The notes under the pieces were generated by a model that was given only the letters and a program-made list of their open reading frames with translations, was not told the origin of the DNA and made no database searches. A program made the translations under genes and the position numbers. Below, piece after piece: positions 1 through 42,595 of a stretch of DNA of 64,000 nt. The DNA lies in the IMG/VR virus record IMGVR_UViG_2974668611_000001, positions 1 to 64,000 of that record; one strand, given 5' to 3'. Position 1 is the stretch's first letter; every line of letters begins with the position of its first letter. Origin of the DNA: a virus. Taxonomy: Duplodnaviria; Caudoviricetes.

Positions 1-178
1 CCCTTAAACACACAGAATCCTAGTTCAGAAAAAATAGGGTTATCTTTTTTGGCTGCTTCAGGGCGCACTTATCCATCTCTCAAACTTCCTTTCTTTGATT
101 GTCTAAATCATATCACGTTATCAAAAATAATGCAACACTTTTTTATGTAAAAAGTCACCAATCGGTGACTAATATTCT

Positions 179-2764
179 TTAGCTAATAATCCATTTAATA
201 TACAAACCGTAAAGCCACATTACAAAACCGTACAAACCACCAGCAATAAACAATGCAACAATCCACGCTAGAAAGTTCCCAATCTTATCTTTCATGTCAT
301 CACTTTTCCAATCTCACACTAATCGAGACGTCGCATTTTGTAAAATAAACTTTTTGACGACGATAATACGAAATTAAGTTATTCATGCTATTAAATGACG
401 CTTCAATACTGTCTTGATAACGTGTCATAATTGGCACTAACGAGTAATGTTTTGACTCGCCTGACGCATTGCAAACCACAAAGTAAACAGCGTCACTGAT
501 TAACTGATTATTAGCAACTTGCATTAACGTGTCTCCCGGCTCATAGTCATCTGTCACTTTAATATTATTGTCAATATTAATGCCTACCATTATTACACTC
601 TCCTATATCTATTCCATTTCTTCTACACGTTCCCACGCAGTATCTAATAAGCTATGAGTTGAACTATTTTCCAATCCTAACTTATGTGATTGCGAGATTA
701 GTGCCATCATCAATAAAGCCCAAGCTCCCTCATCACTCATATCAGAGCCAAACTTCAAGTTACCATCTACAACACTAGCTACAAGCACTCCATTTAAATT
801 ATCCAATAATATATCTTCTTTCAATTAATATAAATTCTTTACAATATCAATGACTTCAAAAAACTTATCTGTATAATTTGACCACGAGTTTTTAGTATTG
901 ATAGTTAAATTAATTACCTTATCTTCAAATTCTTTGTCAAAATTTGGTAGTACATTTTTAAATGCAATTCTAAAGCAATTTTCTAGTACGCTATTATTAA
1001 ATCCTTGTACAACTTCTCCACCGTTAACGTTATTTAAAATGTATTCAATTTCAAGTAACGCTTTATGTTCACTTTTATTCCCATCGTTCGTTGCTTCTTT
1101 ATACATTCGTTCTGCAAAGTCCTTAGGGTTAATATTTTCTAACAAAATCTTATAGTATTCATCTAAAACATTATTCATATCTTATTCCTCACTTTTTAAG
1201 CTTGACTCATCATTAATTGACCAATATATATCGTCGCGTATACGAATATTGCAATCGCCGCTAATATCAAGATTGTCAATATAACGTTGTAGATTATATT
1301 ATTGTTTAATATAAACTGACACACCTTAGTTTGTTCAATCATTGATATTGCAAACATTACCAGTCCGATTGCAACCAATATCAAAAACATGGTCATAAAT
1401 CCTACACAAAAACTAATAAATATATCCATTATGTTCACCTAAAACGTTACCAAATATGTTCCTTTCAATAGGTGGTCATTGTTTTTGTCATATGAATGAC
1501 TAATTAAACTTTCCTTATCTTCTGACGTTACACACACCTTACCGTTCTCTAGGTCAACCAGTGAATATTCGGAAGTTACTAAATAATAGTTGCCATGAGC
1601 CACAATCACGTTGCCGGGTTCATACATGTCGCTTGCAGTTTCTGCTTTTTCATTAATCTTCATATTTTCCTCCTAATGGATTACTAACGTATTATCATTG
1701 ATATAATTGAACTTATCAATTGAAAAGCGTTCAAAGAACTCATTAAGTTCCATTAACCCGTAAATTAATTTTCCAGTGGTTAAATCAACCAAACCATAAA
1801 GAAGACGTTCTCCACCTTTCTTAGAGATTACAAGGCATGTCTTGCCGTCATAACTAACGACATTTCCAGACTGTAATACTTCTCCTTCTGTTGGTTTCGG
1901 CTTCTTATACATTATCTTCATTTAATATCATCTCCAACACCATTGGCTTCAATATAGGCGTCCAGCAATTCTGTTAACATGTCTACAGATTCTTGATAGT
2001 CATAGTCACAAACATCAAGAATCAGGTGCATTAATGGTGTGCCAATAGCATTTAATGCGTCTGATACATTTGAGTCATCGTCAGATTCAAGTACCTTCAT
2101 ATGGTTCCCATCTTCGTTAACTTCAATTAAAATTTTAACCATTATATATCCTCCTATTTAATCTTCATAGCTTTCTAGCGCTAAATTTGCAAATTCAAAA
2201 TCTGTTAATTTATCATCGTTGTTCCGATTTTCTTTTTTGACAATCTTTGCGGCTGAATGCAACAATAATGCAATTGTCATAGCTTGGTCAAAATCACTAT
2301 CTACGTATACTGAACCAGTATTAACCATAACTTGAATTTTACCGTTTTCCATTTTTATATTTCCTCCTAATTAAGACATGCGTCTACATACTTCTACAAC
2401 TGCTCCTAGAAAAATTGAAATCGGAACTAAGATATGAGGGTACACAGACACTCCCATAATTACAATCCCAAGGATTGCCAAGGCCACTAACCCAAGAATG
2501 AACGATACCATAAAGTGAAAAAAGCCATATCTTAACATTATTGTCACCTCTTTATTTAACTCCTAGTAGTTTTACAAGTCTGTCAATTTCTTCTTTTGTT
2601 AAGTTATAACTATCTTGATTAGTTAATCGTACTTCACGAAGAATACTGTTGATACTAAGGATATACTGTAAATTAATGTAAACTCCTGACGATTGTAGAA
2701 AGAACATTATTATCACCTCGTTTTCTATATATGTATCATACCACCTAATTCGGTGATATGTCAA
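179..2764 (-). CDS. Cluster of ~12 small hypothetical early proteins (179-295, 300-590, 609-824, 825-1178, 1196-1438, 1439-1663, 1673-1921, 1918-2142, 2158-2352, 2371-2538, 2552-2708/2764); several are membrane peptides
   Basis: Tightly packed same-strand ORFs, most preceded by GGAGG-type SD (seen as cctcc on +). 179-295 (38 aa) and 2371-2538 (55 aa) were read manually and are hydrophobic. No recognisable domains. Confidence 0.75.
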
Positions 2765-5988: not shown

Positions 5989-6245
5989 CACAGTTTTAAG
6001 TTCCGAGAAGCGCGCATACGAAAGTAAAAGTTCCATAACGGAGTAGCCTTTGGAGGCGAGCATTCTTTTACGAGTAGAAAACCAAGTCTATCTGGTCTAA
6101 CCCCGGTTGAGATAGACAAAGCCCCAATAACATGACACTTAGGGTGCCAGTGCGTTGGGCATACATACCCATTATTTAGGTGTTGAGACATTAAGCATTA
6201 AATCTGACAACACTCCACTGTGTAAAAAGTCTAGCTTAATGTTAT

Positions 6246-6317
6246 TGCTCAGTAGTTCAGTGGTAGAATATCTGACTGTTAATCATATGGTCGCTGGTTC
6301 GAACCCAGCTCGGGCAG
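6246..6317 (+). tRNA. tRNA-Asn(GTT), with stem mismatches
   Basis: Cloverleaf, anticodon loop CT-GTT-AA, T arm GCTGG-TTCGAAC-CCAGC. One mismatch each in acceptor and anticodon stems. No encoded CCA. Confidence 0.8.
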
Positions 6318-6364
6318 TATCATCATATATTTTAGGCTGATAATTTGAAAGAATTTCAACCATA

Positions 6365-6890
6365 ACTATACATAGTGTCAAGCTAGTGTATAAGAGATTG
6401 TCAATCTCGCCTAGCAGTGCTGTCATAATGTGTATTACGTCTATATAGTGATAGCTAGTAGATTTAATAAACCTATTGTTGTAGTGACAAGGGTTGTGGT
6501 GAAAGAAAGCCATCGCGGATTCAGTACTAGATACAAGCTTGTCGATAAATGCATCAACAGTTACGATAGCATAATACGCAGACCCTAAGCTAATGTTAGT
6601 GTGATAACTAGCAGAACCAAGTAGGGAAATCAGTAAGCTATTTTCTAGTTGATGGAGGGTAATTCCTCCTATAAGTAACTAGTTGAGTATTAGTAGGGTA
6701 AATCTAGGAATACAAATATAAAAATATTATATGTAGAAATATAAATATAAAATATTATATGCCTAAAGACATCTGAAAGTTATCAGTCATCGTGCTGGAT
6801 TACACATTATAATGGAACAACAGCTAGCTTGGTAGCTCCTAGTTAGTAGGCGTTGTTCAGTGTATGGCAGAATATATCGTAAAAGCTAAA
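6365..6890 (+). ncRNA. Large structured ncRNA, ROOL-like
   Basis: ORF-free ~550 nt between tRNAs with nested long-range pairings: 6379-6386/6824-6831, 6425-6434/6801-6810, 6459-6466/6699-6706. Size and tRNA-island context fit ROOL. Boundaries approximate. Confidence 0.65.
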
Positions 6891-6924
6891 GTATACTACG
6901 CAAGCCAATGCGGACACTTGTATT

Positions 6925-6997
6925 GCTCTCGTAATCCAACGGCAGAGATAGTGGTCTTAGAAGCCATCCAGTGTGGGTCCGAATCCCACCGAGAGCA
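6925..6997 (+). tRNA. tRNA-Leu(TAG), short variable loop
   Basis: GCTCTCG/CGAGAGC acceptor, GTGGT-CT-TAG-AA-GCCAT anticodon arm, T arm GTGGG-TCCGAAT-CCCAC, A discriminator. Confidence 0.8.
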
Positions 6998-6998
6998 T

Positions 6999-7072
6999 TG
7001 CGGTGGAGTGAAACGGAAAATCACGAAAGGCTCATAACCTTTAAATAGCAGGTCCGACTCCTGCCACCGCAA
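6999..7072 (+). tRNA. tRNA with CAT anticodon (Met, initiator-like; Ile2 not excluded)
   Basis: TGCGGTG/CACCGCA acceptor, AAAGG-CT-CAT-AA-CCTTT anticodon arm, GCAGG-TCCGACT-CCTGC T arm. Confidence 0.8.
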
Positions 7073-7142
7073 CTACCAAAGGGTAGAGTTCCTAGTTTGG
7101 AACTAGAAGGTTATAGGACATACATTGAAAGAGAGGAAAACT

Positions 7143-7403
7143 ATGACAAGTAATGAATTTGTTGAAAAATGCACTAAATTAGTAAGAGACTATACTAACG
7201 AGCATATGGATAAAACTGACAATACTAGTATTAGTAATCAGGATGTATATGTAGTTTGGTATAGTAAGACTCTTCAAAACCACAAGGCGTTATTAAGCAC
7301 AACAGTATCTGACGGTATGTACTATGAATTAACATATAATGGCGATAAAGAAGACTTATACTTTGACGCCTATAAGAAGTTTGAAAATAGATGTATTAAA
7401 TAG
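7143..7403 (+). CDS. DUF6275-like phage protein
   Basis: VYVVWYSKTLQNHKALLST...YYELTYNGDK..LYFDAYKK signature; GAGAGG SD before ATG 7143. Confidence 0.75.
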   Translation: MTSNEFVEKCTKLVRDYTNEHMDKTDNTSISNQDVYVVWYSKTLQNHKALLSTTVSDGMYYELTYNGDKEDLYFDAYKKFENRCIK

Positions 7404-7412
7404 ATTTAATAC

Positions 7413-7626
7413 GTGCTTGTGGCGGAATAGTAGACGCTATGACAGATAGACAAAGGGTTGGAATTAAGGTAGCGGTAAATGGCGACACATAAATGTATCC
7501 GAGTAGCTACTGCCCTTCAAAAATAGATGGATAGTAATTCTGCCGTGGAGTTAGTCCGATAAGACCATATCCGTGTCTAAGTCATCTATAACAGGTCATG
7601 TAGGGTGCAAATCCCTACCAAGCACA
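7413..7626 (+). ncRNA. tRNA-shell RNA A (tRNA acceptor/D/T arms enclosing a ~160-nt structured insert)
   Basis: 5' GTGCTTGTGGCGGAATAGTAGACGC, 3' GTAGGGTGCAAATCCCTACCAAGCACA. Internal stems ATGAC/GTCAT, TAGACA/TGTCTA, AAGGG/CCCTT, GTAGC/GCTAC. Confidence 0.7.
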
Positions 7627-7741
7627 TAAAGCCACTATGTAAGGATACTAGCATCCTAAAAATGTCTAGAGAAACGTATGATAGTATCACGGGTGTGGCG
7701 GTGACTGGAGACATCAATATATGTCTCTGCTATCATAAATT

Positions 7742-7814
7742 GCTCCCCTAGTGTAATTGGATAACACACCAGACTTCCAATCTGGTAATGTCGGTTCGAG
7801 TCCGGCTGGGAGCT
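7742..7814 (+). tRNA. tRNA-Gly(TCC)
   Basis: CCAGA-CT-TCC-AA-TCTGG anticodon arm, TTCGAGT T loop, U discriminator as expected for Gly. Confidence 0.9.
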
Positions 7815-9661: not shown

Positions 9662-11137
9662 ATCGCTAATAAAAATAATAAATGGTCTTTGAAGAGTATC
9701 TTCAAAATTCCATTTAGCCAGCAACAGCCGGGGCAAGATAGTCGTGGCGGTACTTTTGTTCGTTCACAGACTGGTACAGGGCCGTTAGCCTTCACGGGTG
9801 ACGATACACCTATCACAGAAGATACGGTTATGGAGATTCCGGCGTTCAGTGCGGCGTTAGCGTTGGTTGCTGACACGGTAGCTTCTCTCGACATTTTGTT
9901 GATGAAGACAAGTGACCAAGGTGTCCCACTTCCTGTTAAAGATGACGAACGAGTATTAATGCTTAATAAGCAAGCGAACGAGGAGATGTCCGCTTTCACG
10001 TATAAGCGTTCAGTTGTTAAAGACTTGTTACTATACGGTCGTTCGCTAACTTACATTGAACGAACTGGCAAAAACAAGATTAATGCTATTTATCCTTTAG
10101 CTTCTCGTTATGTTACTACCGAAGTTTATACTTATGGTGGTTATAAATATTATGGTGTTTATACCTATAACTCAGAAGCTGGTTCATTTGAATACGATGA
10201 AGAAGACCTAATGAATGTAATCTCGGATTCACAAGACGGTATTACAGCAGATGGTATTATGGCAAACTATACCGGGACGCTTCAATTAGCATTAGCGCAA
10301 CGTGATTATGAAAAAAATCTATTGTCTAACGGTGCGGTTCCTGTTGGTGCTGTGCGTTCTGATAGAGCAGTAGCACCTGAAATCCTTGATAAATTAAAGG
10401 AACAGTTCGCCTCATCTTATTCTGGTGCGGGTAATTCTGGTAAGACGCTATTCCTAGAAGGTGGCTTGTCTTATCAACAGATTAGTACGAACCCAGACAA
10501 TATGCAATTGGACTCTAGTAAGAAGAGCATGTTAGGTGAAATTGCTCGTATGTTTAACTTACCAGAAACACTTATTAACGCTAGTGCTAATAAGTATAAC
10601 TCTAATGAGCAGAACAACCTGCAATTCTTCCAATATTGTTTAAAGCCAATTTTATCAAGTTTTGAAGCCGCAATCAACAAGGAATTGTTGTTGGAATCTG
10701 AAAAAGATGAAGGTTACTTCTTCAAGTTTGATACAGACACTATTATGCAAAATACCTTCAAAGAAAAGGTCGCCGCATATGGTGCTTTATACAAGCAAGG
10801 ACTTATTAGTTATGATGAATTTCGTAACAAGTTTGGCTTTAGCAATATCGAAGGGGAAGACTTTATTAACCTTAGCCTTGGTTCTGTTCTTTACTATCCT
10901 AAGACTGGTGAAATGAAGATTCCTAACTTAGGTATCGCTGGAGGTGCTGACGTTGCCGGACAGGATTCAGGAGACCCTACACAGGTTACTCCTAAGAATC
11001 AACCAATCGGTACCATCACCCCAAACAAGAAGCCGGGAGAAAAGCAAGGTATTCAAAAAGCTCCTAACCAAAAGAATCAAGATGACAGCCATCAAACAAA
11101 GGCTGATAATAATGTGTTAGGAGGTAATGACAATTAA
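9662..11137 (+). CDS. Portal protein (HK97 family)
   Basis: EIARMFNLP, NSNEQNNLQF, F-K-F-D motifs; position after terL. Track start is TTG 9689; the SD favours ATC 9662. Confidence 0.93.
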   Translation: MANKNNKWSLKSIFKIPFSQQQPGQDSRGGTFVRSQTGTGPLAFTGDDTPITEDTVMEIPAFSAALALVADTVASLDILLMKTSDQGVPLPVKDDERVLMLNKQANEEMSAFTYKRSVVKDLLLYGRSLTYIERTGKNKINAIYPLASRYVTTEVYTYGGYKYYGVYTYNSEAGSFEYDEEDLMNVISDSQDGITADGIMANYTGTLQLALAQRDYEKNLLSNGAVPVGAVRSDRAVAPEILDKLKEQFASSYSGAGNSGKTLFLEGGLSYQQISTNPDNMQLDSSKKSMLGEIARMFNLPETLINASANKYNSNEQNNLQFFQYCLKPILSSFEAAINKELLLESEKDEGYFFKFDTDTIMQNTFKEKVAAYGALYKQGLISYDEFRNKFGFSNIEGEDFINLSLGSVLYYPKTGEMKIPNLGIAGGADVAGQDSGDPTQVTPKNQPIGTITPNKKPGEKQGIQKAPNQKNQDDSHQTKADNNVLGGNDN

Positions 11138-12236
11138 GCAAAAAGAATTACGAACACTTAGTTTCGAGACGCGAGATTTGTCTTTTGATGATAAATCTTT
11201 AAAGGTCTCTGGATATGTTAACAAAGCTGGCTCTTACAGTCAGGTGATGTCCGCTGACGGTACCCCGTTTCGTGAAACTATTTTACCACAAGCGTTTGTT
11301 GAAGCTGTTGCAACAGAAGACCCAATTGATTTTTATGCAGAGCATGACGACCAAAAGTTGCTTGCAACAACTGTCAATCATTCATTAACGCTACGTGCAG
11401 ACGATAACGGTCTGTATATGGAAGCACAAATCTTAGATACGAATGATGGTCGTGACACGTATGAGCTTATTAAAAGCGGTGTTATTACGAGTATGAGTTT
11501 CGGATTTATTGTTCTTGATGATGATTGGGACATGACAGGTGGTACGTTCGATGATGGTATTCCATTAAGGACTGTCAAAGAAATCATTTTGAAAGAAGTA
11601 TCTGCGGTACGTTTTCCTGCCTATCTAAGTTCTAGCATTGAAGCTCGTGGTATTCAGGAGCTAAAGAAGCTTGAACACAGAGGTATTAATAGCGTATCGG
11701 AAGTTGTTAATATTAAGGAGGGAAACGAATTGGAATTACGAGACGTAGAAACTAAGGAATTATTTGCTGAGCTAGAACGGCGCGCAAAGCTTCCTGCAAA
11801 TGAAGTTATTGTAAAGCCTGCTAAGCGTGATGATGAACCAGATGATACTAGTGAAACACAGGTGGCGTCTGAAACAGATGTCACTGCCTTGTCTCCAGCG
11901 AGTCAAATTGATGTTGACGAATTAGCTAAGCAAATTATTGCTTCTGTATTAGATGGGCTTCAAACTTCATTAGCACAACGTGATGGTGAGGAAGATGTTC
12001 CTGAACCAGATGGTTCTGACATGGCGACAGATGACGACACTGAAACTGACTCAATGAAGCCAGCTAAGGGTGCTAAGTCTGGTGAAAAACGTGATGACGA
12101 ATCAGACGATACTGACGAATCCGATGATGACACTGAAACTGATTCTAAGACCAGCAAGAAAGCTTCTAAGAGTGCTGAAAAGCGCAGTATGGAAGCACGG
12201 GAATTATTGAAACAAATTAACGATTTGGAGGTCTAA
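11127..12236 (+). CDS. Prohead protease (HK97-type) with acidic C-terminal extension
   Basis: FRETILPQAF, EHD, SMSFGF, EVSAVRFPAY motifs. Confidence 0.92.
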   Translation: MTIKQKELRTLSFETRDLSFDDKSLKVSGYVNKAGSYSQVMSADGTPFRETILPQAFVEAVATEDPIDFYAEHDDQKLLATTVNHSLTLRADDNGLYMEAQILDTNDGRDTYELIKSGVITSMSFGFIVLDDDWDMTGGTFDDGIPLRTVKEIILKEVSAVRFPAYLSSSIEARGIQELKKLEHRGINSVSEVVNIKEGNELELRDVETKELFAELERRAKLPANEVIVKPAKRDDEPDDTSETQVASETDVTALSPASQIDVDELAKQIIASVLDGLQTSLAQRDGEEDVPEPDGSDMATDDDTETDSMKPAKGAKSGEKRDDESDDTDESDDDTETDSKTSKKASKSAEKRSMEARELLKQINDLEV

Positions 12237-12239
12237 TTA

Positions 12240-13526
12240 ATGAAGACAAAAAAGGGTTTGCTTGAAAAGCGTTCAGCATTAAAAGGTAAGCTGGACGAAT
12301 TCAAGCCTGCTATTGAAGATGGTACCGTTACTGACGCGCAATTAGAAGAAATGCGTTCTATCAAGTCAGACATTGTATCAGTTAACGATGAAATTGCAAA
12401 TTTAGATGAACAACGGCATAATGCCGTACCTACAAAAGATGAAACTAGGGGTGCTGAAAAGATGGATAAAGATTTGAAGAAATTAGAAAAGCGCGCGGCC
12501 GCTGACCTATTCCGTAACAAATTGCGGGACAGCAAGGCAGTTCATGACTACCTTGAAGTTGCAAAGGAACATGACAAGGACGTTGACGTAGAAGACCGCG
12601 CCTTACAAGACAACGGTTTATCATGGGGCAACGCCGTAAACGGCACCGCTTCTGACGGTGGTGTTGTTATTCCCACCACTGTTTCCGATACTATTATTGA
12701 AAAGTTACAAGAAACTTCTCCAGTGTTTGCATTGGCTAACAAGCTGGGTTCAATCACTGGTAACTTGCGGGTAGCTCGCGAAACTGACAACTCTGATGAT
12801 GGTTTCGTTGGTGAACTTGAAGAAGTCAAGGCACAAACCCCAACTTTGAAATACGTTGAATTAACGCAAAAGCGTGTCGGTGCCTCAATGCAACTATCTA
12901 ACATGATGATTAATGACGGTGCGCCTGACATCGTTAGCTACGCCGTTGGTCGTTTGGGTCGTTCATTAGGTAAGGCCATCGAACGTGCCGTATTAGTTGG
13001 CGCTAAGACTGGTGAAGACGCTACGAAGACTTTCAAACCAGTTGTTGGTGGTGATGGTGTCCAAACTGTTACTTTGGCTGGTGCAACTCCTACGTTAGAC
13101 GAATTAATTGGTTTAACGACTGCACTTAACCCTGCATACTTGGGACAAGCCGTATTCGTTATGTCTCGTGAAGCATTCAACGCTGTATCTAAGTTGAAGG
13201 ACGATGACAACGAACACTTAATCTTCAAGCCACAAATGCAAACTGCTATTGCGGGTGCTGTTGGTGTTCGTCCAGGATACTCATTCCAAGGTATTCCTGT
13301 ATTTGTATCTGACCAACTTAACGGCAACGCTAATGGCCAAATCGTGTTAGGTAACTTTAACGCTGGTTACACTATTATGACTAAGCAAGGTTTGCGGTTA
13401 ACTCACGTTACGGCTGATACGCAACAGGCACTTGCTGGTGGTCACTTAGTCGTTCTTGATGGTTACATGGACGGTGCTGTTACGAACCCTGACGCATTCG
13501 TGGTTGCTAAGCCTGCGAGTAAGTAA
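12240..13526 (+). CDS. Major capsid protein (HK97 fold, N-terminal delta domain)
   Basis: Coiled-coil N-terminus, GGVVIPTTVSDTIIE, VGEL, GIPV, GNF and DG..TNPDAF motifs. Confidence 0.95.
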   Translation: MKTKKGLLEKRSALKGKLDEFKPAIEDGTVTDAQLEEMRSIKSDIVSVNDEIANLDEQRHNAVPTKDETRGAEKMDKDLKKLEKRAAADLFRNKLRDSKAVHDYLEVAKEHDKDVDVEDRALQDNGLSWGNAVNGTASDGGVVIPTTVSDTIIEKLQETSPVFALANKLGSITGNLRVARETDNSDDGFVGELEEVKAQTPTLKYVELTQKRVGASMQLSNMMINDGAPDIVSYAVGRLGRSLGKAIERAVLVGAKTGEDATKTFKPVVGGDGVQTVTLAGATPTLDELIGLTTALNPAYLGQAVFVMSREAFNAVSKLKDDDNEHLIFKPQMQTAIAGAVGVRPGYSFQGIPVFVSDQLNGNANGQIVLGNFNAGYTIMTKQGLRLTHVTADTQQALAGGHLVVLDGYMDGAVTNPDAFVVAKPASK

Positions 13527-13590
13527 TCCGGCGCCAACGGTCACTAACGTTACCCCTGACGTGAATAGTGCTACGGTGGTAGCTAAGTAA
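13525..13590 (+). other. +1-frame C-terminal extension of major capsid protein (NPAPTVTNVTPDVNSATVVAK*)
   Basis: Open in the +1 frame across the MCP stop, with no start codon or SD of its own; homologous to the tail extension at 16315-16386. Confidence 0.7.
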
Positions 13591-13656
13591 TAAATCCGAT
13601 TATTAACCTCCTCGTTTGAGGAGGTGTACATACCTACATGATAGGAGGGAATACTA

Positions 13657-14115
13657 TTGGCACAAAACTTTGATATTTACGATGACAAAGATGAAAAGAT
13701 TGTAACCAATCAACCATCTCCAGTTGTAATCTCAGATTTAAACCCGGCTACTAAGTATTCTGGTTATAAGATTGCTTATACTGGTAAAGATTCAAAGACA
13801 ACGATTGATGATTTTACAACCACCAACCAAGTACCTGGTAAGCCAACATTGATGGCTAAGGCTGGCGACGGCAAGATTGATGTTATCTTCACCGATGGTG
13901 CAAACCTAGGTACAGTAGTTACTAAGCGTACTGTTTACTGGAAGTCAGCAGACGGTAAGACTGGTACGGCTGATTTGGGTCAAACTTCTAGCGGTTCAGT
14001 TGACGGTTTGACGAACGGTACAGAATATACCTTGCAAGGTGTATGTACAAACGCCGCTGGTGACTCTGAAAAGTCAGATGAAGTAACAGCTACTCCAGTT
14101 TCAGCGGCTGGATAA
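13657..14115 (+). CDS. Fibronectin type III (Ig-like) virion decoration protein: truncated FN3 plus complete FN3
   Basis: ISDLNPATKY and VDGLTNGTEYTLQGVCTNAAGDSEKS FN3 signatures; AGGAGG SD with TTG start. Confidence 0.85.
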   Translation: MAQNFDIYDDKDEKIVTNQPSPVVISDLNPATKYSGYKIAYTGKDSKTTIDDFTTTNQVPGKPTLMAKAGDGKIDVIFTDGANLGTVVTKRTVYWKSADGKTGTADLGQTSSGSVDGLTNGTEYTLQGVCTNAAGDSEKSDEVTATPVSAAG

Positions 14116-14152
14116 CTCTACCCCATTTTGGGGTACATAGGAGGTGTGATAG

Positions 14153-14440
14153 ATGTCAGTGACCGTTAATGATTTTAAAAACCAAATTAACGCAGATTCA
14201 GATGAAGATGTTGATTTATATTTTAACCATGCTGTTGATTACGTTAATTTTTATGTATCAAAAATTACAGGTCAGTTCGCTGGTGAACGTGAAAAACAAT
14301 TTGAGTCTACCATAGATAGAGCTATATTGGAAGTAGCCACAACCTTGTATCTAAAGCGTGATGGTGCACCTGTCAGTGGCACTATTAATTCCTCATCACT
14401 AGAAACCATTATTAATTATGGCAGGAACTTTTCCATTTAG
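14153..14440 (+). CDS. Head-tail connector (gp6/gp15-like)
   Basis: AVDYV..Y...RAILEVATTLYLKR pattern; synteny. Confidence 0.8.
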   Translation: MSVTVNDFKNQINADSDEDVDLYFNHAVDYVNFYVSKITGQFAGEREKQFESTIDRAILEVATTLYLKRDGAPVSGTINSSSLETIINYGRNFSI

Positions 14441-14452
14441 TGAGGTGAGAAA

Positions 14453-14881
14453 ATGGCAAATAAGGTTGACCTATGGCGTTACAAAGAGAAGTTAGAGCTT
14501 GGCACAAATGAATCATGGAAAGAGCTAGATAACGGGAATATTATTAACTCTGGAGCTGACATTAATGACGATACATTTGATGTTAAGTATACTTTTCATT
14601 GCGCGCAATATCGGGTATCAGATAGAAATATTACGAGTGTTAACGGAATGGACGACGAAAACACACTTGTAGTTGCCGTTAAACACAGGCCAAACTTTGA
14701 TTACGATAGTTATCGGGCAAGGTTTAGGAAAAAATATTATATTGTAACCTATATTGTACCAGATACCGCCGCAATTGTGTCATATGATTTATTATCATTG
14801 AAATCAGTTATTAAAAACGGCGGTTCATCTGGTGTGTCTGGCACTTCAAGTTATGGAGGGGGCGATTCATATGGCGATTAA
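14453..14881 (+). CDS. Head closure / head-tail adaptor protein
   Basis: Synteny, beta-rich sequence, VVAVKH...YDLLSLK as in LAB phage homologs. Confidence 0.7.
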   Translation: MANKVDLWRYKEKLELGTNESWKELDNGNIINSGADINDDTFDVKYTFHCAQYRVSDRNITSVNGMDDENTLVVAVKHRPNFDYDSYRARFRKKYYIVTYIVPDTAAIVSYDLLSLKSVIKNGGSSGVSGTSSYGGGDSYGD

Positions 14882-15323
14882 TAAGAAATTGGTTACTACC
14901 GGCTTAGGTTCGATTGAGGTAACTGGCGAAGACGAGTTGCTTAAACAGTTAGACAAATTTAAATTATCTCGTAAGGAACGTTCAGCTATTGTTGAAGCCG
15001 CTATTCCAATTGCCGAAAAGCACCTATATGATAGCACACCTTATGATGAATTTGAAGATGTTCAGAACAAAAAACTATATGGTAAGTCGATTGGTCATTT
15101 AAGAGACCATATCACACATAAGCCAAACCAATTTATTGACGGTGGTACTGAATTAGGATTTGAGCAAAAAGCTTATCCTATTGCTGTCTGGACTGACTGG
15201 GGGACATATCGTCAACCAGCACAGTTTTGGTTTGAGAAGTCCATTGAAACTATGCCATACGACCAAATCTTTGCTGCACAAACTCAAACAGCCAAGGCTA
15301 TTTTAAAGGCAAAGGGGTTGTAA
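14871..15323 (+). CDS. HK97 gp10-like tail-completion/neck protein
   Basis: GHLRDHI...WTDWGTYRQPAQFWFE motif; GGAGGGG SD before ATG 14871. Confidence 0.8.
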   Translation: MAINKKLVTTGLGSIEVTGEDELLKQLDKFKLSRKERSAIVEAAIPIAEKHLYDSTPYDEFEDVQNKKLYGKSIGHLRDHITHKPNQFIDGGTELGFEQKAYPIAVWTDWGTYRQPAQFWFEKSIETMPYDQIFAAQTQTAKAILKAKGL

Positions 15324-15326
15324 GAT

Positions 15327-15704
15327 TTGATTTCAAACGACGTAAAACAATTAATTAGAGACGCCAATATTGACGGAATTGACCCAAAATATGTCTTTGC
15401 ATATGCTCTTCCTGATAATATTAAGGCGGCAGTTCAGAATAAAATAGTGATTTTAGTTAACGATATTTCACGCATTCCTAGTAAATTTGGTAGCGATGAT
15501 ATTATTGCTGATGACGGTACGGTACAAGTACAGTTCTTTTATCCACTAAGTATTGACGGAGACGTTACAGCGTTGTATGAGCACCCTGTGCGCAACATGT
15601 TGCGTGACAATGGTTGGTATCAGACAATCGGTGGCGGAATTGACCGTGAACCAAACACTTCACAACTTTATTCAACTTATCATTTTAAGAAAACCATTTA
15701 TTAA
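15327..15704 (+). CDS. Tail terminator protein (DUF806-like)
   Basis: VQVQFFY...GWYQ pattern; immediately before major tail protein. Confidence 0.75.
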   Translation: MISNDVKQLIRDANIDGIDPKYVFAYALPDNIKAAVQNKIVILVNDISRIPSKFGSDDIIADDGTVQVQFFYPLSIDGDVTALYEHPVRNMLRDNGWYQTIGGGIDREPNTSQLYSTYHFKKTIY

Positions 15705-15722
15705 AGAAAGAGGTAATTACTA

Positions 15723-16334
15723 ATGGCAAAAACCAAAGGTATTGACAGCGCCCGGCTTGCTATCTTTAAGCAAGACGCTGAAACGGTTGACCTAACAAAT
15801 ACGGCAATCGGGGCAACGGGTGTTTATAAATTAGACGAAAAGACCGCACAAGGTATGACGGTCGGTAACATTACTGGTCTTGCACCAACGATGACTAAGA
15901 TTTATGGTTCTGACATGGTTGTTGAAACTTCCGGTAAAGGTGTTGGCTCTGTTCAAGCGACTGTTGGTGCTAACGACATTCCAGAAGCAATTATTGACGC
16001 CATTACTGGTGTTGATAACACGCAAGGATTCTCTGTTGTTACGTCAGACACGCGTGCTCCATATTCAGTTATTGAATTTATTACGCACGGTCGTCTGAAT
16101 AACGTATTGCATTTTGCTTTGTTGAAAGGTACTTTCGGCCTTGAAGAACACAACATGCAAACGAACACTGAATCAGAACAGTTGGCACCAGACTCATTGA
16201 CGTTTACTGGTGTTAACCGCCAAGCTGATAAAGCCGCTTATGCTAAAGGTGACGAAGCCAACGAAACATTTAAGATTGATGATTGGACTAAATTTGTATT
16301 TCCTGGGTACACCCCCAGCGGAACCGGCGCCTAA
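15723..16334 (+). CDS. Major tail (tube) protein
   Basis: NITGLAP..TKIYGSD, APYS, ALLKGTF motifs typical of LAB siphophage MTPs. Confidence 0.9.
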   Translation: MAKTKGIDSARLAIFKQDAETVDLTNTAIGATGVYKLDEKTAQGMTVGNITGLAPTMTKIYGSDMVVETSGKGVGSVQATVGANDIPEAIIDAITGVDNTQGFSVVTSDTRAPYSVIEFITHGRLNNVLHFALLKGTFGLEEHNMQTNTESEQLAPDSLTFTGVNRQADKAAYAKGDEANETFKIDDWTKFVFPGYTPSGTGA

Positions 16335-16386
16335 GATTGCGTCGATAACCCCAAGTATAACAAGTGCTACTATCGTGGCAGAATAG
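16315..16386 (+). other. +1-frame C-terminal extension of major tail protein (PAEPAPKIASITPSITSATIVAE*)
   Basis: Entered by a +1 shift at ACC-CCC-AGC; homologous to the capsid extension. Confidence 0.75.
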
Positions 16387-16462
16387 TCTCTATGCGCCTC
16401 ATCGAGGGGCGCGTCTACATATCCAAAAATAAAATATTTAGATGAAAGACGAGGAGATTCAT

Positions 16463-16861
16463 ATGACTGTCAAAATCAATGCAAAAGATTTAGGAATTCG
16501 TAAGCCCGTTGAAGTAAACGAGACTAACAAGAACATTAAGAAAACATTAAAGGTGCAAATGAAGTTGGAAGCGTTAGGTAATATTGATGCCGAAAACATG
16601 ACCGATGAAGAAGCATACAGTTTGTTTATTAAGAACCAATATGAAGCAAACGAAGCAACCACCGAATATATTGCTGACCTTTTACGTTTATCAGAATCAC
16701 AAATTGATAAACTAGAAGACTTAGAATCAAGCAAGACCGATGAATTGTTTGCTCAAATCGTTCAAAAGATTATGCACATTGACCAGATTGTGGACGGTGA
16801 CGAAGACGACGGTACGCCCAGCGGAACCACAGACGTTTCAGGAGACGCTGGACGAGATTAA
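16463..16861 (+). CDS. Tail assembly chaperone (gpG-like)
   Basis: Between MTP and tape measure gene; GAGGAG SD before ATG 16463; acidic. Confidence 0.85.
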   Translation: MTVKINAKDLGIRKPVEVNETNKNIKKTLKVQMKLEALGNIDAENMTDEEAYSLFIKNQYEANEATTEYIADLLRLSESQIDKLEDLESSKTDELFAQIVQKIMHIDQIVDGDEDDGTPSGTTDVSGDAGRD

Positions 16862-17039
16862 TCGTCTCGAAAAAACACTGATTTCTCAAAACCAAGACAC
16901 ATTTAATAATTTAGAGGAAACTAACTATTTTGATTTATTAGAAACTCTATCTGTCGATGACGACGGTGGTGGTTCTGGTTCTGACGATAAAGTAGAGCCT
17001 TTAGGTTACTGGTTGGAAAATAACATTGCTGATAAGTGA
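16818..17039 (+). CDS. Frameshifted C-terminal part of tail assembly chaperone (gpGT-like), +1 frame
   Basis: Overlapping ORF PAEPQTFQETLDEINRLEK...LEETNYFDLLETL with no SD; CCC-AGC-GGA-ACC at 16817-16828. Confidence 0.75.
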   Translation, partial: PAEPQTFQETLDEINRLEKTLISQNQDTFNNLEETNYFDLLETLSVDDDGGGSGSDDKVEPLGYWLENNIADK

Positions 17040-17114: not shown

Positions 17115-20100
17115 ATGAAACAGGCCGCATATGGTAGTTTAACATATAATGTTAATATTAACGATACAAAAGCTCAATCGAGTTTGCGTACGTTAAAAGG
17201 AGCTATTCGCTCCACAGGCCAAGAATGGCGTTCTAACGCTTCTGCAATGCAAGCCGCCGGTGATAGTGCAAGTGCTTTAGACGCTAAGATAACAGGTCTT
17301 AACAAAGAAATTGAGTTACAAACCGATTATAACAAGCGCTTAGCAGAAGCATTGAAGAATGCCAATGCTACGACTGACAAGGAAAAGCTTGCAGTTATGC
17401 GCTGGACGAATGAATTAACCAGAAGTAATGCGGCACTTAAACGTCGTCAAAGCGAACTGGATAGTGCACGAGCGGCCGAAATCAGATACTCAACTGGTAT
17501 TGACAGAGCACAAAAGTCTCACAGGGCTTATACCAATGCGATTGAAGCTAGTGAGAAAGCTCTATCAGCAGAAGGTAAAGAAGAACAAGCAAGCGCTAAA
17601 CACAAGGAACTCTTAGCGGCTAAGACGTCTTCATTGAAAGATGAGCTTGGTCGGGAAGAGAAAGCGTTCAAAGCGTTAAAGGCTAGCGCTAGCTCTTCTA
17701 ACGTTGACATCAACAAGCAATCTGCTGTCGTGTCAAAAGCTCGTGAGGCTTATGCTAAAGCTCGTGAAGAACAGCGTAAGTATTCTACTGGTCTCCATCA
17801 AATGGAACAGTATTCTAAGTCGACTGCTGAAATATCGCAATCACTTGCTTCAAGATTACGAGCAGAAGGCAAGAACTATACTGCAATGTCGGTAGAGTTA
17901 AAGACATTAATTGGTTCTCGTAAAGGGTTGTTGACTCAATACAAGACTGAAATGTCCGAATTAGAATTAATTAAGAAGCGCTCTGGTGATACAAGCGCGG
18001 CCTATTCAGCACAGGCTAAAAAGGTCAATGATTTAGGCGCAAGGATTGGAGAAACGGACTCAAAAATCCGTTCTTTAAATAAAAATGTTGGTTTATCTGG
18101 TTCAGCAATAAACTCATTTAGTGATAAAATTGGTGGTATGCAAAAGAAATACGCTGGCGTTGCTAATGCAATGTCTGCCGTTTCTCGTGGTACTGGCTAT
18201 GCAACATTAGGTCTTGCCGCCGTAACCAAGCAAGGTGTCTCAATGTCAACCTCGCTACAATCTTCTTTTACTAAGACTAAAAACTTAATTGTTAAGTCTA
18301 ATACAGAAGGAACTGGTGAGATTAACCGTAACCTTGCAAAGATGAAAGAGAATGCTCAATCATATTCTAAAGAATATGGTTTAACACAGCAAAAGATTTC
18401 TGACGGTTATCAAGACTTAATCAAACGTGGTTACAGTTCGGCACAAGCATTAGGTTCAATGAAGACATTAGTTAAAGGTGCTATTGCCACTGGCGATGAC
18501 TTCAACGATGTTACAGCCGTTTCTACACAGACTTTGGAATCATTCGGTCTGAGGGCTAACTCTACTGCTCAAATGGCCAAGAATACGTCTAAGGTTGTTA
18601 ACGAGATGGCCTATGCCGCCGATATGACGGCTACCGATTTCCAAAGCTTGGGTAAAGGTATGGAATATGTCGGTAACACGGCCCATCAAGCAGGGTTTAG
18701 TATCTCTGAAACCGCTAGTGCCATGGGTATTTTATCGAACAACGGTTTGGAATCTGACAAAGCTGGTACTGGACTACGTAAGACGATTAACTCATTGGTA
18801 TCTCCTACTGATAACGCTACTGGCGCTTTGAAGAAATTAGGGTTATCAACAAGTAGTTTTACAGATAAGAACGGTAAGATGAAGTCGATGTCGGATATTT
18901 TCGGCATTTTGAACTCTCATATGAAGAACTTATCTGGTCATGACCGTACTGACGTGTTCCATGCAATCTTTGGTACGACTGGTCAACAGGCTGGTGGTAT
19001 TTTAACTGATAATTACAAGTCACTGAAGAATTTGAACGGTGAAGTCGAGCGTTCAGCAAAGACAGACTATATTGGTGGTTTGTCTGCAAAGAACATGGAA
19101 ACTGCACAGAACCAGTTTAACAAGTTTAAGGTTACTTTTCAAGCTTTAGAGATTGAGTTCGCGAACGTATTACTTCCATATTTAACCAAAGGTGCTAAAG
19201 CACTAACGGGATTAATGGATAAGTTCGATAAGTTGAGTCCTTCTGCTAAAAAAGCCGCCGGAGCAACGCTTCTATTGGTTCCAGCAATTAGTGCTGTTAC
19301 TGGTGTAATTGCCGCTTTCATTCGTAATTCCGGAACAATTGCAACTGTTGTTTCAAAATTATTCAGTAAATCTAAGATTGATACTGCTGGTGCAAGCAAG
19401 TCTGCTGTTGCCGCAATTGACGAGCAAACCGCCGCTGTAAAGGCTCTCGCATTAGCATGGGCCGACGCTGGGGAAGCCGCTGGAGCAGAAGCGGCAGAAG
19501 CCGGCGCTGGTAGTGCTGGTGGTCTCAAAGGAAAAGCTGGTAAGACAGCTTCCGAAGTAGAATCTGTTGGTACTCGTGAAGAGTATCAAGCGGCTAAAAA
19601 GTCTCGTTCTAAGTCATCTGTATTAAAACGTATGGCTAAAGGCCAGACAACTACTGAGGACGCCGAAGCTATTTCGTCAAGGATTGGTAAGGTCGGTACT
19701 ACTGGTTCCAAGCTAGGTAAAATAGCTAGGGGTACTGGTGGACTTCTGAAACGTATTCCGTGGTTACAAACTGGTTTGGCCGCCATGAACCTTATTGGTA
19801 TCAACAAGAAGAACGCGGGCCAAAAGGTCGGTTCTACTGCTGGTCAATTAGGTGGTACAATTGGCGGTGGTGCTATCGGTACTGGTATTGGTGGTCTAGT
19901 CGGTGGTGGACTTGGTACTTTCTTTGGCCCGGCAGGAACAGTAGCCGGCGCTAAGATTGGTTCTACCGTTGGTGGACTTGCTGGTAGTTTCTTTGGTGGC
20001 TCTAAGGGCCAAGATTGGGGTGGACAGCTAGGTAAGAAGATTCAGAAGTCTATGAAGAACTTCAAAATGCCTAAGATGTCAACCATCACTAAGTCAATCG

Positions 20101-42236: not shown

Positions 42237-42308
42237 TGTGTCTTGACAGAGTCGAACTGTCATTCCATGATTAGGAGTCATGTGTCTTATCCATTAGACT
42301 AAAGACAC
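42237..42308 (-). tRNA. tRNA-Arg(CCT)
   Basis: GTGTCTT/AAGACAC acceptor, CATGA-CT-CCT-AA-TCATG arm, TTCGACT T loop. Confidence 0.88.
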
Positions 42309-42312
42309 GTTA

Positions 42313-42395
42313 TGCGGGACCCTGTAGTCGAACCAGCGCTTTCGGGCCAGTTTTACTGTGCGCACCCCGATAGACTACCGTTATCTTAATCCCGC
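42313..42395 (-). ncRNA. Aberrant tRNA-like RNA with expanded anticodon loop
   Basis: GCGGGAT/GTCCCGC acceptor, D arm, TCGGG/CCCGA stem closing a 19-nt loop containing CAGT-AAA-ACTG, imperfect T arm with GTTCGAC. Confidence 0.6.
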
Positions 42396-42397
42396 TA

Positions 42398-42506
42398 TGT
42401 GCTTGGTAGGGATTTGCACCCTACATGATTGCCCGGATTAATCGACAGCTCCGTCAAGCTTAATCAGGTATTGCCTTCTTGCGTTTACCTATTCCGCCAC
42501 AAGCAC
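42398..42506 (-). ncRNA. tRNA-shell RNA B
   Basis: Same 18-nt 5' end and 31-nt 3' end as 7413-7626; ~55-nt insert forming a GATTAA/TTAATC hairpin. Confidence 0.7.
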
Positions 42507-42521
42507 ACCATTACATTACCA

Positions 42522-42595
42522 TGCGTCCTGTCGGGTACGGTCCGACAACCTACGGATTAGAAATCCGTTGCTCTATCCAGTTGAGCTAAGGACGC
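42522..42595 (-). tRNA. tRNA-Arg(TCT), atypical T loop
   Basis: GCGTCCT/AGGACGC acceptor, ACGGA-TT-TCT-AA-TCCGT arm, T loop ACCGTAC. Confidence 0.85.

What the first reader, a model, noticed from the sequence alone, without database searches (positions are those of the whole stretch)
13525..16386. Candidate split-FN3 docking system: frameshift-appended peptide tags on both capsid and tail tube, plus an FN3 protein lacking those strands
Seen: in the +1 frame the major capsid gene continues as NPAPTVTNVTPDVNSATVVAK* (13525-13590) and the major tail gene as PAEPAPKIASITPSITSATIVAE* (16315-16386). They align without gaps as PAP-x-[VI]-x-x-[VI]-T-P-x-[VI]-x-S-A-T-[VI]-V-A-x-stop, both encode PAP with CCGGCGCC, and neither has its own start or SD. 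The gene after the capsid (13657-14115) has a complete C-terminal FN3 domain. Its N-terminal domain starts at what looks like strand C (FDIY) and has only the later strands (VVISDLNPATKY, YKIAY, FTT). Established: FN3 domains begin with P-x-x-P strand A and an S-x-T-V strand B, and phages such as SPP1 (gp17.1*) and Listeria phage PSA extend virion proteins by frameshifting. Inference: here the frameshift adds only strands A-B. These would complete the truncated FN3 in trans, so one decoration protein can dock on both head and tail at a density set by frameshift efficiency, like a natural tag/catcher pair. I cannot confirm from memory whether this has been described.
Basis: partly seen in the sequence, partly recalled or inferred. 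Interest (0 to 1): 0.92.

Follow-up and report, generated by a model that had tools for sequence, protein, structure and literature searches.

The report
Frameshift tags dock split FN3 protein
In this Lactiplantibacillus phage a rare +1 ribosomal slip probably adds a roughly 22-residue tail, the first two strands of a fibronectin-type domain, to some head and tail-tube subunits, and the gene next to the capsid gene makes a protein that starts with the other five strands, so one surface protein can probably clip onto both head and tail by completing its own fold.

Summary

- **Tags.** Both +1-frame tags exist at the stated coordinates. They recur in all 10 related Tybeckvirinae loci examined, with the stop in the same register and mostly third-codon-position changes.
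- **Shift sites.** The candidate sites are GCG AGT A (capsid) and CCC AGC G (tail tube). CCC AGC G also sits at the tail-chaperone +1 shift.
- **Acceptor.** The 152-aa protein begins 23-34 residues into an FN3 fold. In an AlphaFold model of the contiguous stretch read through its four stops, the tag takes the place of strands A and B.
- **Other phages.** The same tag-then-acceptor layout occurs in 11 lineages of Lactobacillus, Enterococcus, Staphylococcus and Brochothrix phages. The tag is reached by +1 at AGY, +1 at CCC-stop, -1 at G GGA AAG, or in frame.
- **Unsplit forms** with tag and acceptor in one frame exist.
- **Precedent.** Tuc2009 BppU/BppA is a solved example of a hairpin completing a partner's sandwich.
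- **Literature.** My searches found no description of this system.
- **Earlier scan notes.** This scan noted the same system before on other DNA.

I rate it a new variant of a known kind.

The parts
12240..13526 (+). Major capsid protein gene (428 aa, HK97-type)
   Evidence: Pfam PF05065, E 6e-42; ORF listed
13515..13521 (+). Candidate +1 shift heptamer GCG AGT A (Ty3-like), two codons before the capsid stop
   Evidence: It is conserved in all 11 Tybeckvirinae capsid gene ends. It also occurs in the tail-tube genes of P1/P2/Satyr/Maenad, in JNU_P2-type capsids (PF03864) and in L023. In L001-L003 and L009-L011 a +1-frame stop five codons upstream limits where the shift can occur.
13519..13590 (+). 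Capsid tag: 23 codons in the +1 frame plus a stop, proposed to form FN3 strands A and B
   Evidence: forms strands 8-13 and 18-22 in the read-through model
13606..13625 (+). GC-rich hairpin between the tag and the decoration gene, followed by GTACATA
   Evidence: compensatory changes are visible in the relatives' sequences
13657..13827 (+). Acceptor half-domain of the decoration protein (residues 1-57; FN3 strands C to G only); TTG start with AGGAGG 8 nt upstream
   Evidence: AlphaFold model; structural alignments start 23-34 residues into solved FN3 domains (one search compared); in the profile search, 44 of 50 near-full-length matches begin at residues 1-7 of their protein
13828..14115 (+). 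Complete FN3 display domain of the decoration protein
   Evidence: Pfam fn3, 27.1 bits against a cut-off of 25; seven strands in the model; Z 13-14 to solved FN3 domains
15723..16334 (+). Tail tube protein gene (203 aa)
   Evidence: Pfam PF04630, E 7e-27
16314..16320 (+). Candidate +1 shift heptamer CCC AGC G in the tail-tube gene
   Evidence: the same 12-mer, CCCAGCGGAACC, is found at the tail-chaperone site
16318..16386 (+). Tail-tube tag: 22 codons in the +1 frame plus a stop
16394..16412 (+). Hairpin after the tail tag, followed by TCTACATA
   Evidence: z -2.66
16442..16861 (+). Tail assembly chaperone gene (short product)
   Evidence: Pfam PF06896
16817..17039 (+). Chaperone +1 shift site CCC AGC G (16817-16823) and its +1-frame extension, which gives the long product
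   Evidence: conserved in L012, L014 and L015

Best explanation
This looks like a split-domain docking system. The steps below are marked as shown or inferred.

1. **Frameshift (inferred).** A minority of ribosomes shift +1 near the end of the capsid gene (at GCG AGT A) and of the tail-tube gene (at CCC AGC G). They replace the last 2 or 5 residues with a 22-23-residue tail.
2. **Tag (shown in sequence, inferred in structure).** The tail has the sequence pattern of FN3 strands A and B.
3. **Acceptor (shown in models).** The gene after the capsid gene encodes a 152-aa protein. Its first 57 residues are an FN3 domain lacking exactly those two strands. A complete FN3 domain follows.
4. **Docking (inferred).** The tag inserts into the open sandwich of the acceptor, with strand B pairing with strand E. 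This fixes one displayed FN3 domain non-covalently to each tagged head or tail subunit.
5. **Density (inferred).** The shift rate sets how many subunits are tagged.
6. **Role of the displayed domain (inferred by analogy).** It probably gives weak adhesion to cell-surface or environmental glycans, as proposed for other phage Ig-like domains.
For: - **Selection on the tag frames.** They are kept in every relative examined, with third-position bias and stops in register.
- **Shift heptamers.** In-frame GCGAGTA or CCCAGCG occurs only 3 times in about 18,767 codons of long ORFs: at the 3' ends of the capsid, tail-tube and chaperone genes. CCC is rare (35 codons). The chaperone's long form can only be made by a +1 shift, and it shares the 12-mer with the tail-tube site.
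- **Acceptor lacks strands A and B.**
  - With the tag, 4yfe_B aligns over 328..520 (172 residues); without it, over 357..520 (146 residues).
  - 3lpw_B aligns over 4..197 with the tag against 36..197 without.
  - 4bq6_A aligns over 884..1087 with the tag against 918..1087 without.
  - Strand E (residues 23-25) is assigned only when the tag is present.
- **Eleven lineages keep a tag directly upstream of an acceptor gene**:
  - Douglaswolinvirus, Maenadvirus, Lenusvirus, JNU_P2-type and L023 use +1 at GCG AGT A or CCC AGY G.
  - Harbinvirus uses +1 at GTG AGY A.
  - Efquatrovirus AL3 and Staphylococcus IMEP5 use +1 at CCC-stop.
  - Brochothrix BtpYZU02 uses -1 at G GGA AAG, on both capsid and tail tube.
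  - Phage 3-521 and Staphylococcus phiSA_BS2 carry the tag in frame.
- **Different capsid families.** The JNU_P2 capsid belongs to another Pfam family yet ends with the same GCG AGT AAG TAA.
- **Unsplit forms.** P0064 and P0095 carry tag and acceptor in one frame. Complete domains in P0076 and P0108 have tag-like A/B strands.
- **Published mass spectrometry.**
  - The tag-bearing ORF106 and the lone 61-aa acceptor ORF108 of phage 3-521 were found in CsCl-purified virions (PMC6563214 Table 4; ORF numbers mapped).
  - The 7.0-kDa lone acceptor of vB_EfaS-271 was found in a lysate with 93.9% coverage (PMC7503890).
- **Structural precedent.** The Tuc2009 BppU hairpin completes a sheet of BppA domain 2 (PMC4742702).
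Against: - There is no experimental evidence here for the frameshift or for the binding.
- AlphaFold models the acceptor alone with high confidence (block pLDDT 89-96), so the model does not mark it as unstable.
- In the read-through model the tag is covalently tethered, has only two rows in the alignment, and AlphaFold tends to complete familiar folds.
- No unusual RNA structure lies downstream of the shift sites (z -0.3, -1.3, -0.6).
- AGT and AGC are not rare codons in the phage (310 and 216 of 18,767), and GCG AGT A occurs about as often as chance predicts (1 seen; my estimate from the counts is about 0.9). The capsid shift site is therefore inferred only from its recurrence.
- In phage 3-521 the acceptor-FN3-tag protein ORF107 is not in the published virion list.
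- The L023 tail tube has no tag, so tail docking is not universal.
Confidence: 0.75

Rival explanations
1. The tags are made and are functional, but they act alone, for example as C-terminal arms that add a strand to neighbouring capsid or tail subunits. The 152-aa protein then binds the virion through another surface or through self-association of its open sandwich.
For: C-terminal arms that extend ring contacts are known in tail tubes: the 80alpha gp53 C-arm is described in the review PMC8718954. The acceptor alone is modelled confidently.
Against: This does not explain four things. The tag always lies next to an acceptor gene in 11 lineages. Decoration proteins themselves carry in-frame tags followed by lone acceptors. 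Unsplit forms exist. The tag superimposes on strands A and B of solved FN3 domains.
Confidence: 0.08
2. The tags are decaying remnants of formerly full-length frameshift-appended Ig-like domains and are not translated to any useful extent.
For: Full FN3 or Ig-like extensions made by frameshifting are common (PMC5009743; PMC8718954). P0095 looks like such an unbroken form. No stimulatory RNA structure was found.
Against: Sequence past the capsid stop would drift freely. Instead, 7 distinct sequences keep length, register and residue pattern, with 204 of 330 pairwise differences at third codon positions. The same truncation point recurs in unrelated lineages that use different recoding signals. 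Both tags of one genome change together: both have S-A-T in the window and G-A-T in Lenusvirus.
Confidence: 0.05
3. Tag and acceptor do pair, but the purpose is assembly control rather than display. The acceptor protein would cap or chaperone tagged subunits during head and tail assembly, or mark a subset of positions.
For: Several lineages encode a lone acceptor with no passenger domain: Efquatrovirus gp09 (66 aa), 3-521 ORF108 and phiSA_BS2 gp161. That is hard to read as display of a binding module.
Against: In this window the acceptor carries a complete FN3 domain. Across 42 fetched homologues the passengers are typical display modules: FN3, Big_2 and Thr-rich stalks. Lone acceptors were detected by mass spectrometry, in purified virions for phage 3-521 and in a purified lysate for vB_EfaS-271.
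Confidence: 0.1

Closest known systems
Bacillus phage SPP1 gp17.1* (tail tube with FN3 added by frameshift)
   Same: A frameshift at the 3' end of the tail-tube gene puts an FN3 fold on a fraction of subunits (3:1 ratio) and is dispensable for viability (PMC8718954, passages read). Staphylococcus IMEP5 and Enterococcus AL3 use a CCC-stop site. That SPP1 also shifts +1 at CCC-stop is my recollection, not from a call.
   Different: In SPP1 the whole FN3 domain is in the extension. Here only strands A and B are, and the rest of the domain is a separate gene product. Here the capsid carries the same tag.
Listeria phage PSA Cps-L and Tsh-L (also A118, A500)
   Same: +1 frameshifts near the 3' ends of both the capsid and the tail genes give long forms found in virions (review PMC5009743, passages read).
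   Different: The PSA extensions are not FN3 strands: one is a 47-residue SAP-like segment and the other a 24-residue acidic tail. A motif scan of the first 14 kb of PSA found no acceptor-like start. The PSA sites are CCC-based, not AGY-based.
Lactobacillus phage A2 gp5B and gp10B
   Same: Both the major head and the major tail protein of a Lactobacillus siphophage are extended by frameshifting (PMC5009743).
   Different: The A2 shifts are -1 and the extension is described there as Ig-like. No separate acceptor is known. I did not examine the A2 sequence.
Lactococcus phage Tuc2009 BppU hairpin with BppA domain 2 (crystal structure)
   Same: A 25-residue C-terminal beta-hairpin of one structural protein completes a beta-sheet of an incomplete sandwich in an accessory, carbohydrate-binding protein. 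The composite resembles a titin domain (PMC4742702, passages read).
   Different: In Tuc2009 the hairpin is in frame and sits on a baseplate protein, and the incomplete domain is at the C-terminus of the partner. It is not recoded, not on capsid or tail tube, and was not described as a general system. No sequence relation was tested.
Chaperone-usher pilus donor-strand complementation
   Same: An Ig-like fold that lacks strands is completed by a strand from another chain. Acceptors that carry their own tag could in principle form chains.
   Different: Pilins lack the last strand and receive an N-terminal extension with the help of a chaperone and usher. Here the first two strands are missing and come from a C-terminal tail. 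This is recalled knowledge, not tested here.
Yeast Ty3 +1 frameshift site GCG AGU U
   Same: The P-site codon (GCG) and A-site codon (AGU) are the same. The shift occurs without re-pairing and yields Ala-Val (PMC5009743), as the capsid site here would.
   Different: Ty3 is eukaryotic and depends on a special tRNA-Ala and a scarce tRNA-Ser. Nothing is known about these tRNAs in L. plantarum.

Membership tests
Frameshift-made long forms of major capsid and tail proteins (PSA, A118, SPP1, A2 type) | An open frame in another phase continues past the gene's stop and has no start signal of its own | tested here: met
Frameshift-made long forms of major capsid and tail proteins (PSA, A118, SPP1, A2 type) | A recognised shift-prone site lies in the overlap | tested here: inconclusive
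   CCC AGC G has a CCC codon that could re-pair at CCA and is shared with the chaperone site. GCG AGT A matches only the yeast Ty3 type. No reporter data exist.
Frameshift-made long forms of major capsid and tail proteins (PSA, A118, SPP1, A2 type) | Two products with the same N-terminus are present in virions | not testable with these tools
   Needs virion mass spectrometry or gels. The searches listed no proteome paper for this phage group.
Frameshift-appended Ig-like or FN3 domain (SPP1 gp17.1*, T3, A2) | The extension encodes a complete Ig-like domain | tested here: not met
   The extension is 22-23 residues and forms two strands only.
Pfam fn3 (PF00041) | Profile match above the curated cut-off and a seven-strand sandwich | tested here: met
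   C-terminal domain: 27.1 bits against a cut-off of 25; seven strands; Z 13-14 to solved FN3 domains.
Pfam fn3 (PF00041) | The same criteria applied to the N-terminal domain alone | tested here: not met
   No Pfam match on residues 1-57. The alignments begin 23-34 residues into solved FN3 domains. The fold is FN3-like but incomplete.
Composite Ig-like domain completed in trans (Tuc2009 BppU/BppA) | A C-terminal beta-hairpin of about 25 residues on a structural protein | tested here: met
   Tags of 22-23 residues are modelled as two strands.
Composite Ig-like domain completed in trans (Tuc2009 BppU/BppA) | The partner has a sandwich with an open sheet that the hairpin fills | tested here: inconclusive
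   This is seen only in a single-chain AlphaFold model of the read-through stretch. No two-chain prediction or structure is available.
Tail assembly chaperone G/GT pair | Two overlapping frames between the tail-tube and tape-measure genes, joined by a -1 slippery heptamer | tested here: not met
   The overlap is present (PF06896), but the second frame is +1 and the site is CCC AGC G. It works like G/GT with the opposite shift direction.

The most novel reading that the evidence does not exclude
The tag and acceptor form a general, mobile plug-and-socket system for phages of Bacilli.

- The plug can be put on any virion protein (two unrelated capsid families, tail tubes, a myophage protein of unknown role) by any recoding trick or in frame.
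- Sockets carry interchangeable passengers: FN3, Big_2, Thr-rich stalks and other modules.
- Sockets that carry their own plug polymerise head to tail into bead chains on the virion, much like pilus donor-strand polymers, and lone 60-75-residue sockets cap the chains.
- The recoding rate sets the surface density.
Probability: 0.4. Interest if true: 0.9.

Novelty: new variant of a known kind. Interest (0 to 1): 0.8.

Why it matters
- **Function of short extensions.** It would give a function to short, puzzling frameshift extensions on phage capsid and tail proteins.
- **Annotation.** It would explain why small proteins annotated as 'major tail protein' sit beside capsid genes in many Lactobacillus, Enterococcus and Staphylococcus phages.
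- **Mechanism.** It would show a natural use of fragment complementation of an Ig-like fold, with its amount set by recoding.
- **Applications.** It suggests a simple handle for displaying cargo on the heads and tails of these phages, and a set of natural peptide/half-domain pairs for protein engineering.
- **Recoding.** It adds a bacterial +1 site of the Ty3 type (GCG AGU A) and a +1 tail-chaperone shift to the list of recoding signals to test.

Tried and rejected
- **Gene neighbourhoods.** Their tags could not be checked.
- **PSA as a member.** Rejected. Its extensions are a SAP-like segment and an acidic tail, and a motif scan of its first 14 kb found no acceptor-like start.
- **Stimulatory RNA structure after the shift sites.** Nothing stands out (z -0.3, -1.3, -0.6).
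- **Rare-codon explanation.** Not supported by phage codon use (AGT 310, AGC 216 of 18,767 codons). Host tRNA genes were not examined. The phage's six tRNAs include none for Ser, Pro or Ala.
- **Transcriptional slippage.** Unlikely, since the longest run at a site is C5.
- **Read-through or hopping from tag into the decoration gene.** The two are in the same frame in the window, Gut-P1 and L013 but not in P1/P2, and the tail tag has no acceptor behind it. Rejected as a general mechanism.
- **Short tags in a joint alignment (A3).** MAFFT misplaced them, so A4 was made without them.
- **Context of the unsplit form P0095.** No locus was found in viral contigs.
- **Papers.**
  - The paper on FN3 fragment complementation (Dutta et al. 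2005) is not held. I saw only its citation, and what I know of its content is recalled.
  - Searches for a prior description and passages of the phage papers PMC7260188, PMC6669764, PMC6563214 and PMC7503890 mention neither the tags nor a split domain.
Table S6 of PMC7503890 (peptide lists) could hold tag peptides.

Full report
**What the window is.** The region is the structural module of a virulent Lactiplantibacillus plantarum siphophage of the subfamily Tybeckvirinae. The record is 80,617 bp. The closest named phage is Gut-P1 at 90.7% identity over 4.9 kb. P1, P2, Satyr and Maenad follow at about 83% (14 records matched, 8 over at least 80% of the query).

Pfam names the genes as follows:
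- prohead protease, 11127-12236
- major capsid protein, 12240-13526 (PF05065)
- head-tail connector proteins
- tail tube protein, 15723-16334 (PF04630)
- tail assembly chaperone, 16442-16861 (PF06896)

The tape measure gene follows at 17115.

**The observation.**
- From PAP to the stop, the two tags share 11 of 20 residues, plus 4 V/I exchanges, with no gap.
- A motif built from the pair occurs only at these two places in the six frames of the window and never in 200 shuffles.
- Conservation is the stronger test. In the 10 related loci that hold the capsid gene end (L001-L005, L009-L011, L013, L021), the 23 codons that follow the proposed shift point are always open and always stop at the same place. 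The residue pattern is kept.
- Seven distinct DNA sequences differ at codon positions 1/2/3 by 54/72/204. This sequence lies beyond the capsid stop, so only translation in the +1 frame explains the bias.
- The tail tag is kept in all 8 related loci that include it, with differences of 106/87/171.
- The two tags of one genome change together: both carry S-A-T in the window and Gut-P1, and G-A-T in Lenusvirus.

**How the tags would be made.**
- The capsid gene ends GCG AGT AAG TAA (AAT in some relatives). In six relatives a +1-frame stop five codons upstream confines the shift to the last seven codons.
- The heptamer GCG AGT A recurs just before tags in four other contexts:
  - the tail-tube genes of P1, P2, Satyr and Maenad
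  - JNU_P2-type capsids, which belong to another capsid family (PF03864)
  - the capsid of contig L023
  - Harbinvirus, in the form GTG AGT A or GTG AGC A. There a +1-frame TGA overlaps the GTG codon, so the shift cannot occur earlier.
- It has the same P- and A-site codons as yeast Ty3 GCG AGU U, which yields Ala-Val without re-pairing (review PMC5009743, passages read).
- The tail-tube gene of the window has CCC AGC G. The 12-mer CCCAGCGGAACC recurs in the chaperone gene at 16817. There the +1 frame (ORF 16740-17039) carries the second half that every long-tailed phage needs.
- The chaperone shift of this phage is therefore +1 rather than the usual -1, and it uses the tail-tube heptamer.
- In long ORFs of the whole window (about 18,767 codons) these heptamers occur in frame three times only, at these three gene ends. 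CCC is a rare codon (35 occurrences).
- Points against an efficient shift: downstream RNA folds are unremarkable, and AGT and AGC are common codons. The mechanism is inferred.

**The acceptor.**
- The 152-aa protein (13657-14115; TTG start with AGGAGG 8 nt upstream) matches Pfam fn3 only on residues 87-145.
- An AlphaFold model from a 20-row alignment (A1; pLDDT 93.2) has a seven-strand C-terminal domain and an N-terminal domain with fewer strands.
- Aligned to about 48,000 solved chains, residue 1 of the model falls 23-34 residues inside the first domain of tandem FN3 structures. Examples are 4yfe_B from residue 357, 3lpw_B from 36 and 4bq6_A from 918.
In the window, tag and gene are in the same frame, separated by four stops. 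I therefore folded the contiguous stretch 13519-14112 with X at the stops.
- In that model:
  - the tag forms two strands (residues 8-13 and 18-22; block pLDDT 76 and 89)
  - the 20-residue linker is disordered
  - strand E of the acceptor (residues 23-25 of the protein) appears only in this model
- The same solved chains now align from the start of their first domain: 4yfe_B from 328 (172 aligned against 146), 3lpw_B from 4, 4bq6_A from 884.
- This is a tethered, single-chain model with a shallow alignment for the tag. It shows that the pieces fit, not that they bind.

**Wider distribution.** A profile of ten acceptor domains (A6) found 239 proteins at E up to 0.001 among 1.84 billion cluster representatives.
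- Of the best 150, 50 matched over at least 44 of the 57 positions. Of those, 44 begin within the first seven residues of the protein and 6 are internal (my count from the table).
- I fetched 42 sequences that start with the acceptor. After the acceptor they carry FN3, one to three Big_2 domains, Thr-rich repeats or other modules.
- Six of the 42 are 62-69 residues long and consist of an acceptor alone. Six end with an in-frame tag.
- Among the internal hits, P0064 and P0095 have tag and acceptor in one frame. P0076 and P0108 have complete domains whose A/B strands resemble the tags.
- Only the hit tables are behind these counts. The gene neighbourhoods of these metagenomic proteins could not be fetched.

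In named phages and IMG/VR contigs, each of 11 lineages examined has a tag directly upstream of the acceptor gene:

| Lineage | Protein carrying the tag | How the tag is reached |
|---|---|---|
| Tybeckvirinae (3 genera) | Capsid and tail tube | +1 at GCG AGT A or CCC AGY G |
| JNU_P2 type | Capsid | +1 at GCG AGT A; the decoration protein also ends in an in-frame tag |
| L023 | Capsid only (tail tube has none) | +1 at GCG AGT A; decoration protein is acceptor + Big_2 + tag |
| Lb. brevis myophage 3-521 and L022 | Upstream protein of unknown function (phrog_21586) | In frame; followed by acceptor + FN3 + tag, then a lone 61-aa acceptor |
| Harbinvirus | Upstream phrog_21586 protein | +1 at GTG AGT A or GTG AGC A; acceptor + Thr-rich tail |
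| Staphylococcus phiSA_BS2 | Upstream 'Ig domain' protein | In frame; the same three-gene set as 3-521 |
| Staphylococcus IMEP5 | Tail tube | +1 at CCC TAA |
| Brochothrix BtpYZU02 | Capsid and tail tube | -1 at the classical G GGA AAG |
| Enterococcus AL3 | Capsid and tail tube | +1 at CCC TAG; lone 66-aa acceptor |

tblastn with the acceptor alone finds 62 phage records: 31 Enterococcus and 31 Lactobacillus or Lactiplantibacillus. A search with P0095 adds 20 Staphylococcus records and one Brochothrix record among its 30. The window's own genome has one acceptor.

**Experimental hints from papers.**
- In phage 3-521, ORF numbers in Table 4 of PMC6563214 equal the GenBank locus tags (checked on ORFs 55-71).
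  - ORF106 (tag-bearing; 7 peptides, 62% coverage) and ORF108 (lone acceptor; 1 peptide, 18% coverage) were detected in CsCl-purified virions.
  - ORF107 was not listed.
- In vB_EfaS-271 the 7.0-kDa acceptor was detected in a lysate at 93.9% coverage and was called a second major tail protein (PMC7503890).
- Neither paper mentions frameshifting of capsid or tail genes in the passages I read.

**Comparison with what is known.**
- Frameshift-made long forms of capsid and tail proteins, and frameshift-appended Ig-like domains, are established: PSA, A118, A500, A2 and T3 (PMC5009743) and SPP1 gp17.1* with a whole FN3 at 3:1 (PMC8718954).
- PSA itself is not of this kind.
- The crystal structure of the Tuc2009 tripod shows a 25-residue BppU hairpin completing a sheet of BppA domain 2, and the composite looks like a titin domain (PMC4742702).
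- New here: the recoded extension is only a fragment of a domain, and the rest of the domain comes as a separate gene product. The same fragment is placed on both head and tail. The arrangement recurs widely with interchangeable recoding signals and passengers.
- Four full-text searches for such a description returned nothing relevant. The library lacks most subscription journals, so prior description cannot be excluded.
- This scan has recorded the same system before in other genomes. Those notes are not independent evidence.

**Verdict.** My confidence in the docking mechanism is about 0.75. I class it as a new variant of a known kind, with interest 0.8.

Noticed in passing
window 16817-17039: The tail assembly chaperone's second frame is +1, not the usual -1. 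The likely site is CCC AGC G, which shares the 12-mer CCCAGCGGAACC with the tail-tube gene. It is conserved in P1, Satyr and Maenad.
   Followed up: partly
window 4087, 13606, 14120, 22784, 24622 (and 16394): GC-rich perfect hairpins followed within 0-4 nt by (G)TACATA lie at gene junctions of the structural module, all on the + strand and none on the - strand. Relatives show compensatory stem changes. They may be an RNA processing, stabilising or terminator-like signal.
   Followed up: partly
L022 2890-2960: In a 123-kb contig like phage 3-521, the decoration protein's own tag lies behind an in-frame TAA (context TAA C), while the tag sequence stays intact. This could be stop read-through, a recent mutation or a sequencing error.
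   Followed up: no
L023 3520-3600: The junction 'end of tag plus start of acceptor' is duplicated after the decoration gene. This leaves a truncated 21-codon second acceptor start, a trace of recombination at the cassette boundary.
   Followed up: no
L032 78-1014 and 1738-3184: The Staphylococcus phage IMEP5 record holds two identical tail-tube genes. The first is followed by a truncated acceptor gene. This is a duplication or an assembly artefact.
   Followed up: no
window 6245-7814 and 42237-42595: The window has six tRNA genes (Asn, Leu-TAG, Met, Gly-TCC, Arg-CCT, Arg-TCT). None reads Ser, Pro or Ala codons of the shift sites.
   Followed up: no
window 13657-14115 and homologues: RefSeq and PHROG (phrog_341, phrog_14018) call this decoration protein and the lone acceptors 'major tail protein'. 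The real tail tube protein is a different gene, so the name is misleading.
   Followed up: yes
L009 1680-3869 compared with L010 1679-2599 and 2565-3869: In SA-C12 the protease and capsid genes are annotated as one 2.2-kb 'major head protein'. In Nyseid and Lenus they are two overlapping genes. This is either an annotation difference or another recoding event.
   Followed up: no
window 11127-12236: The prohead protease gene (S78 domain on residues 15-180) carries a long acidic, Ser/Asp/Glu-rich C-terminal half of about 190 residues. It may be a fused scaffold-like region.
   Followed up: no
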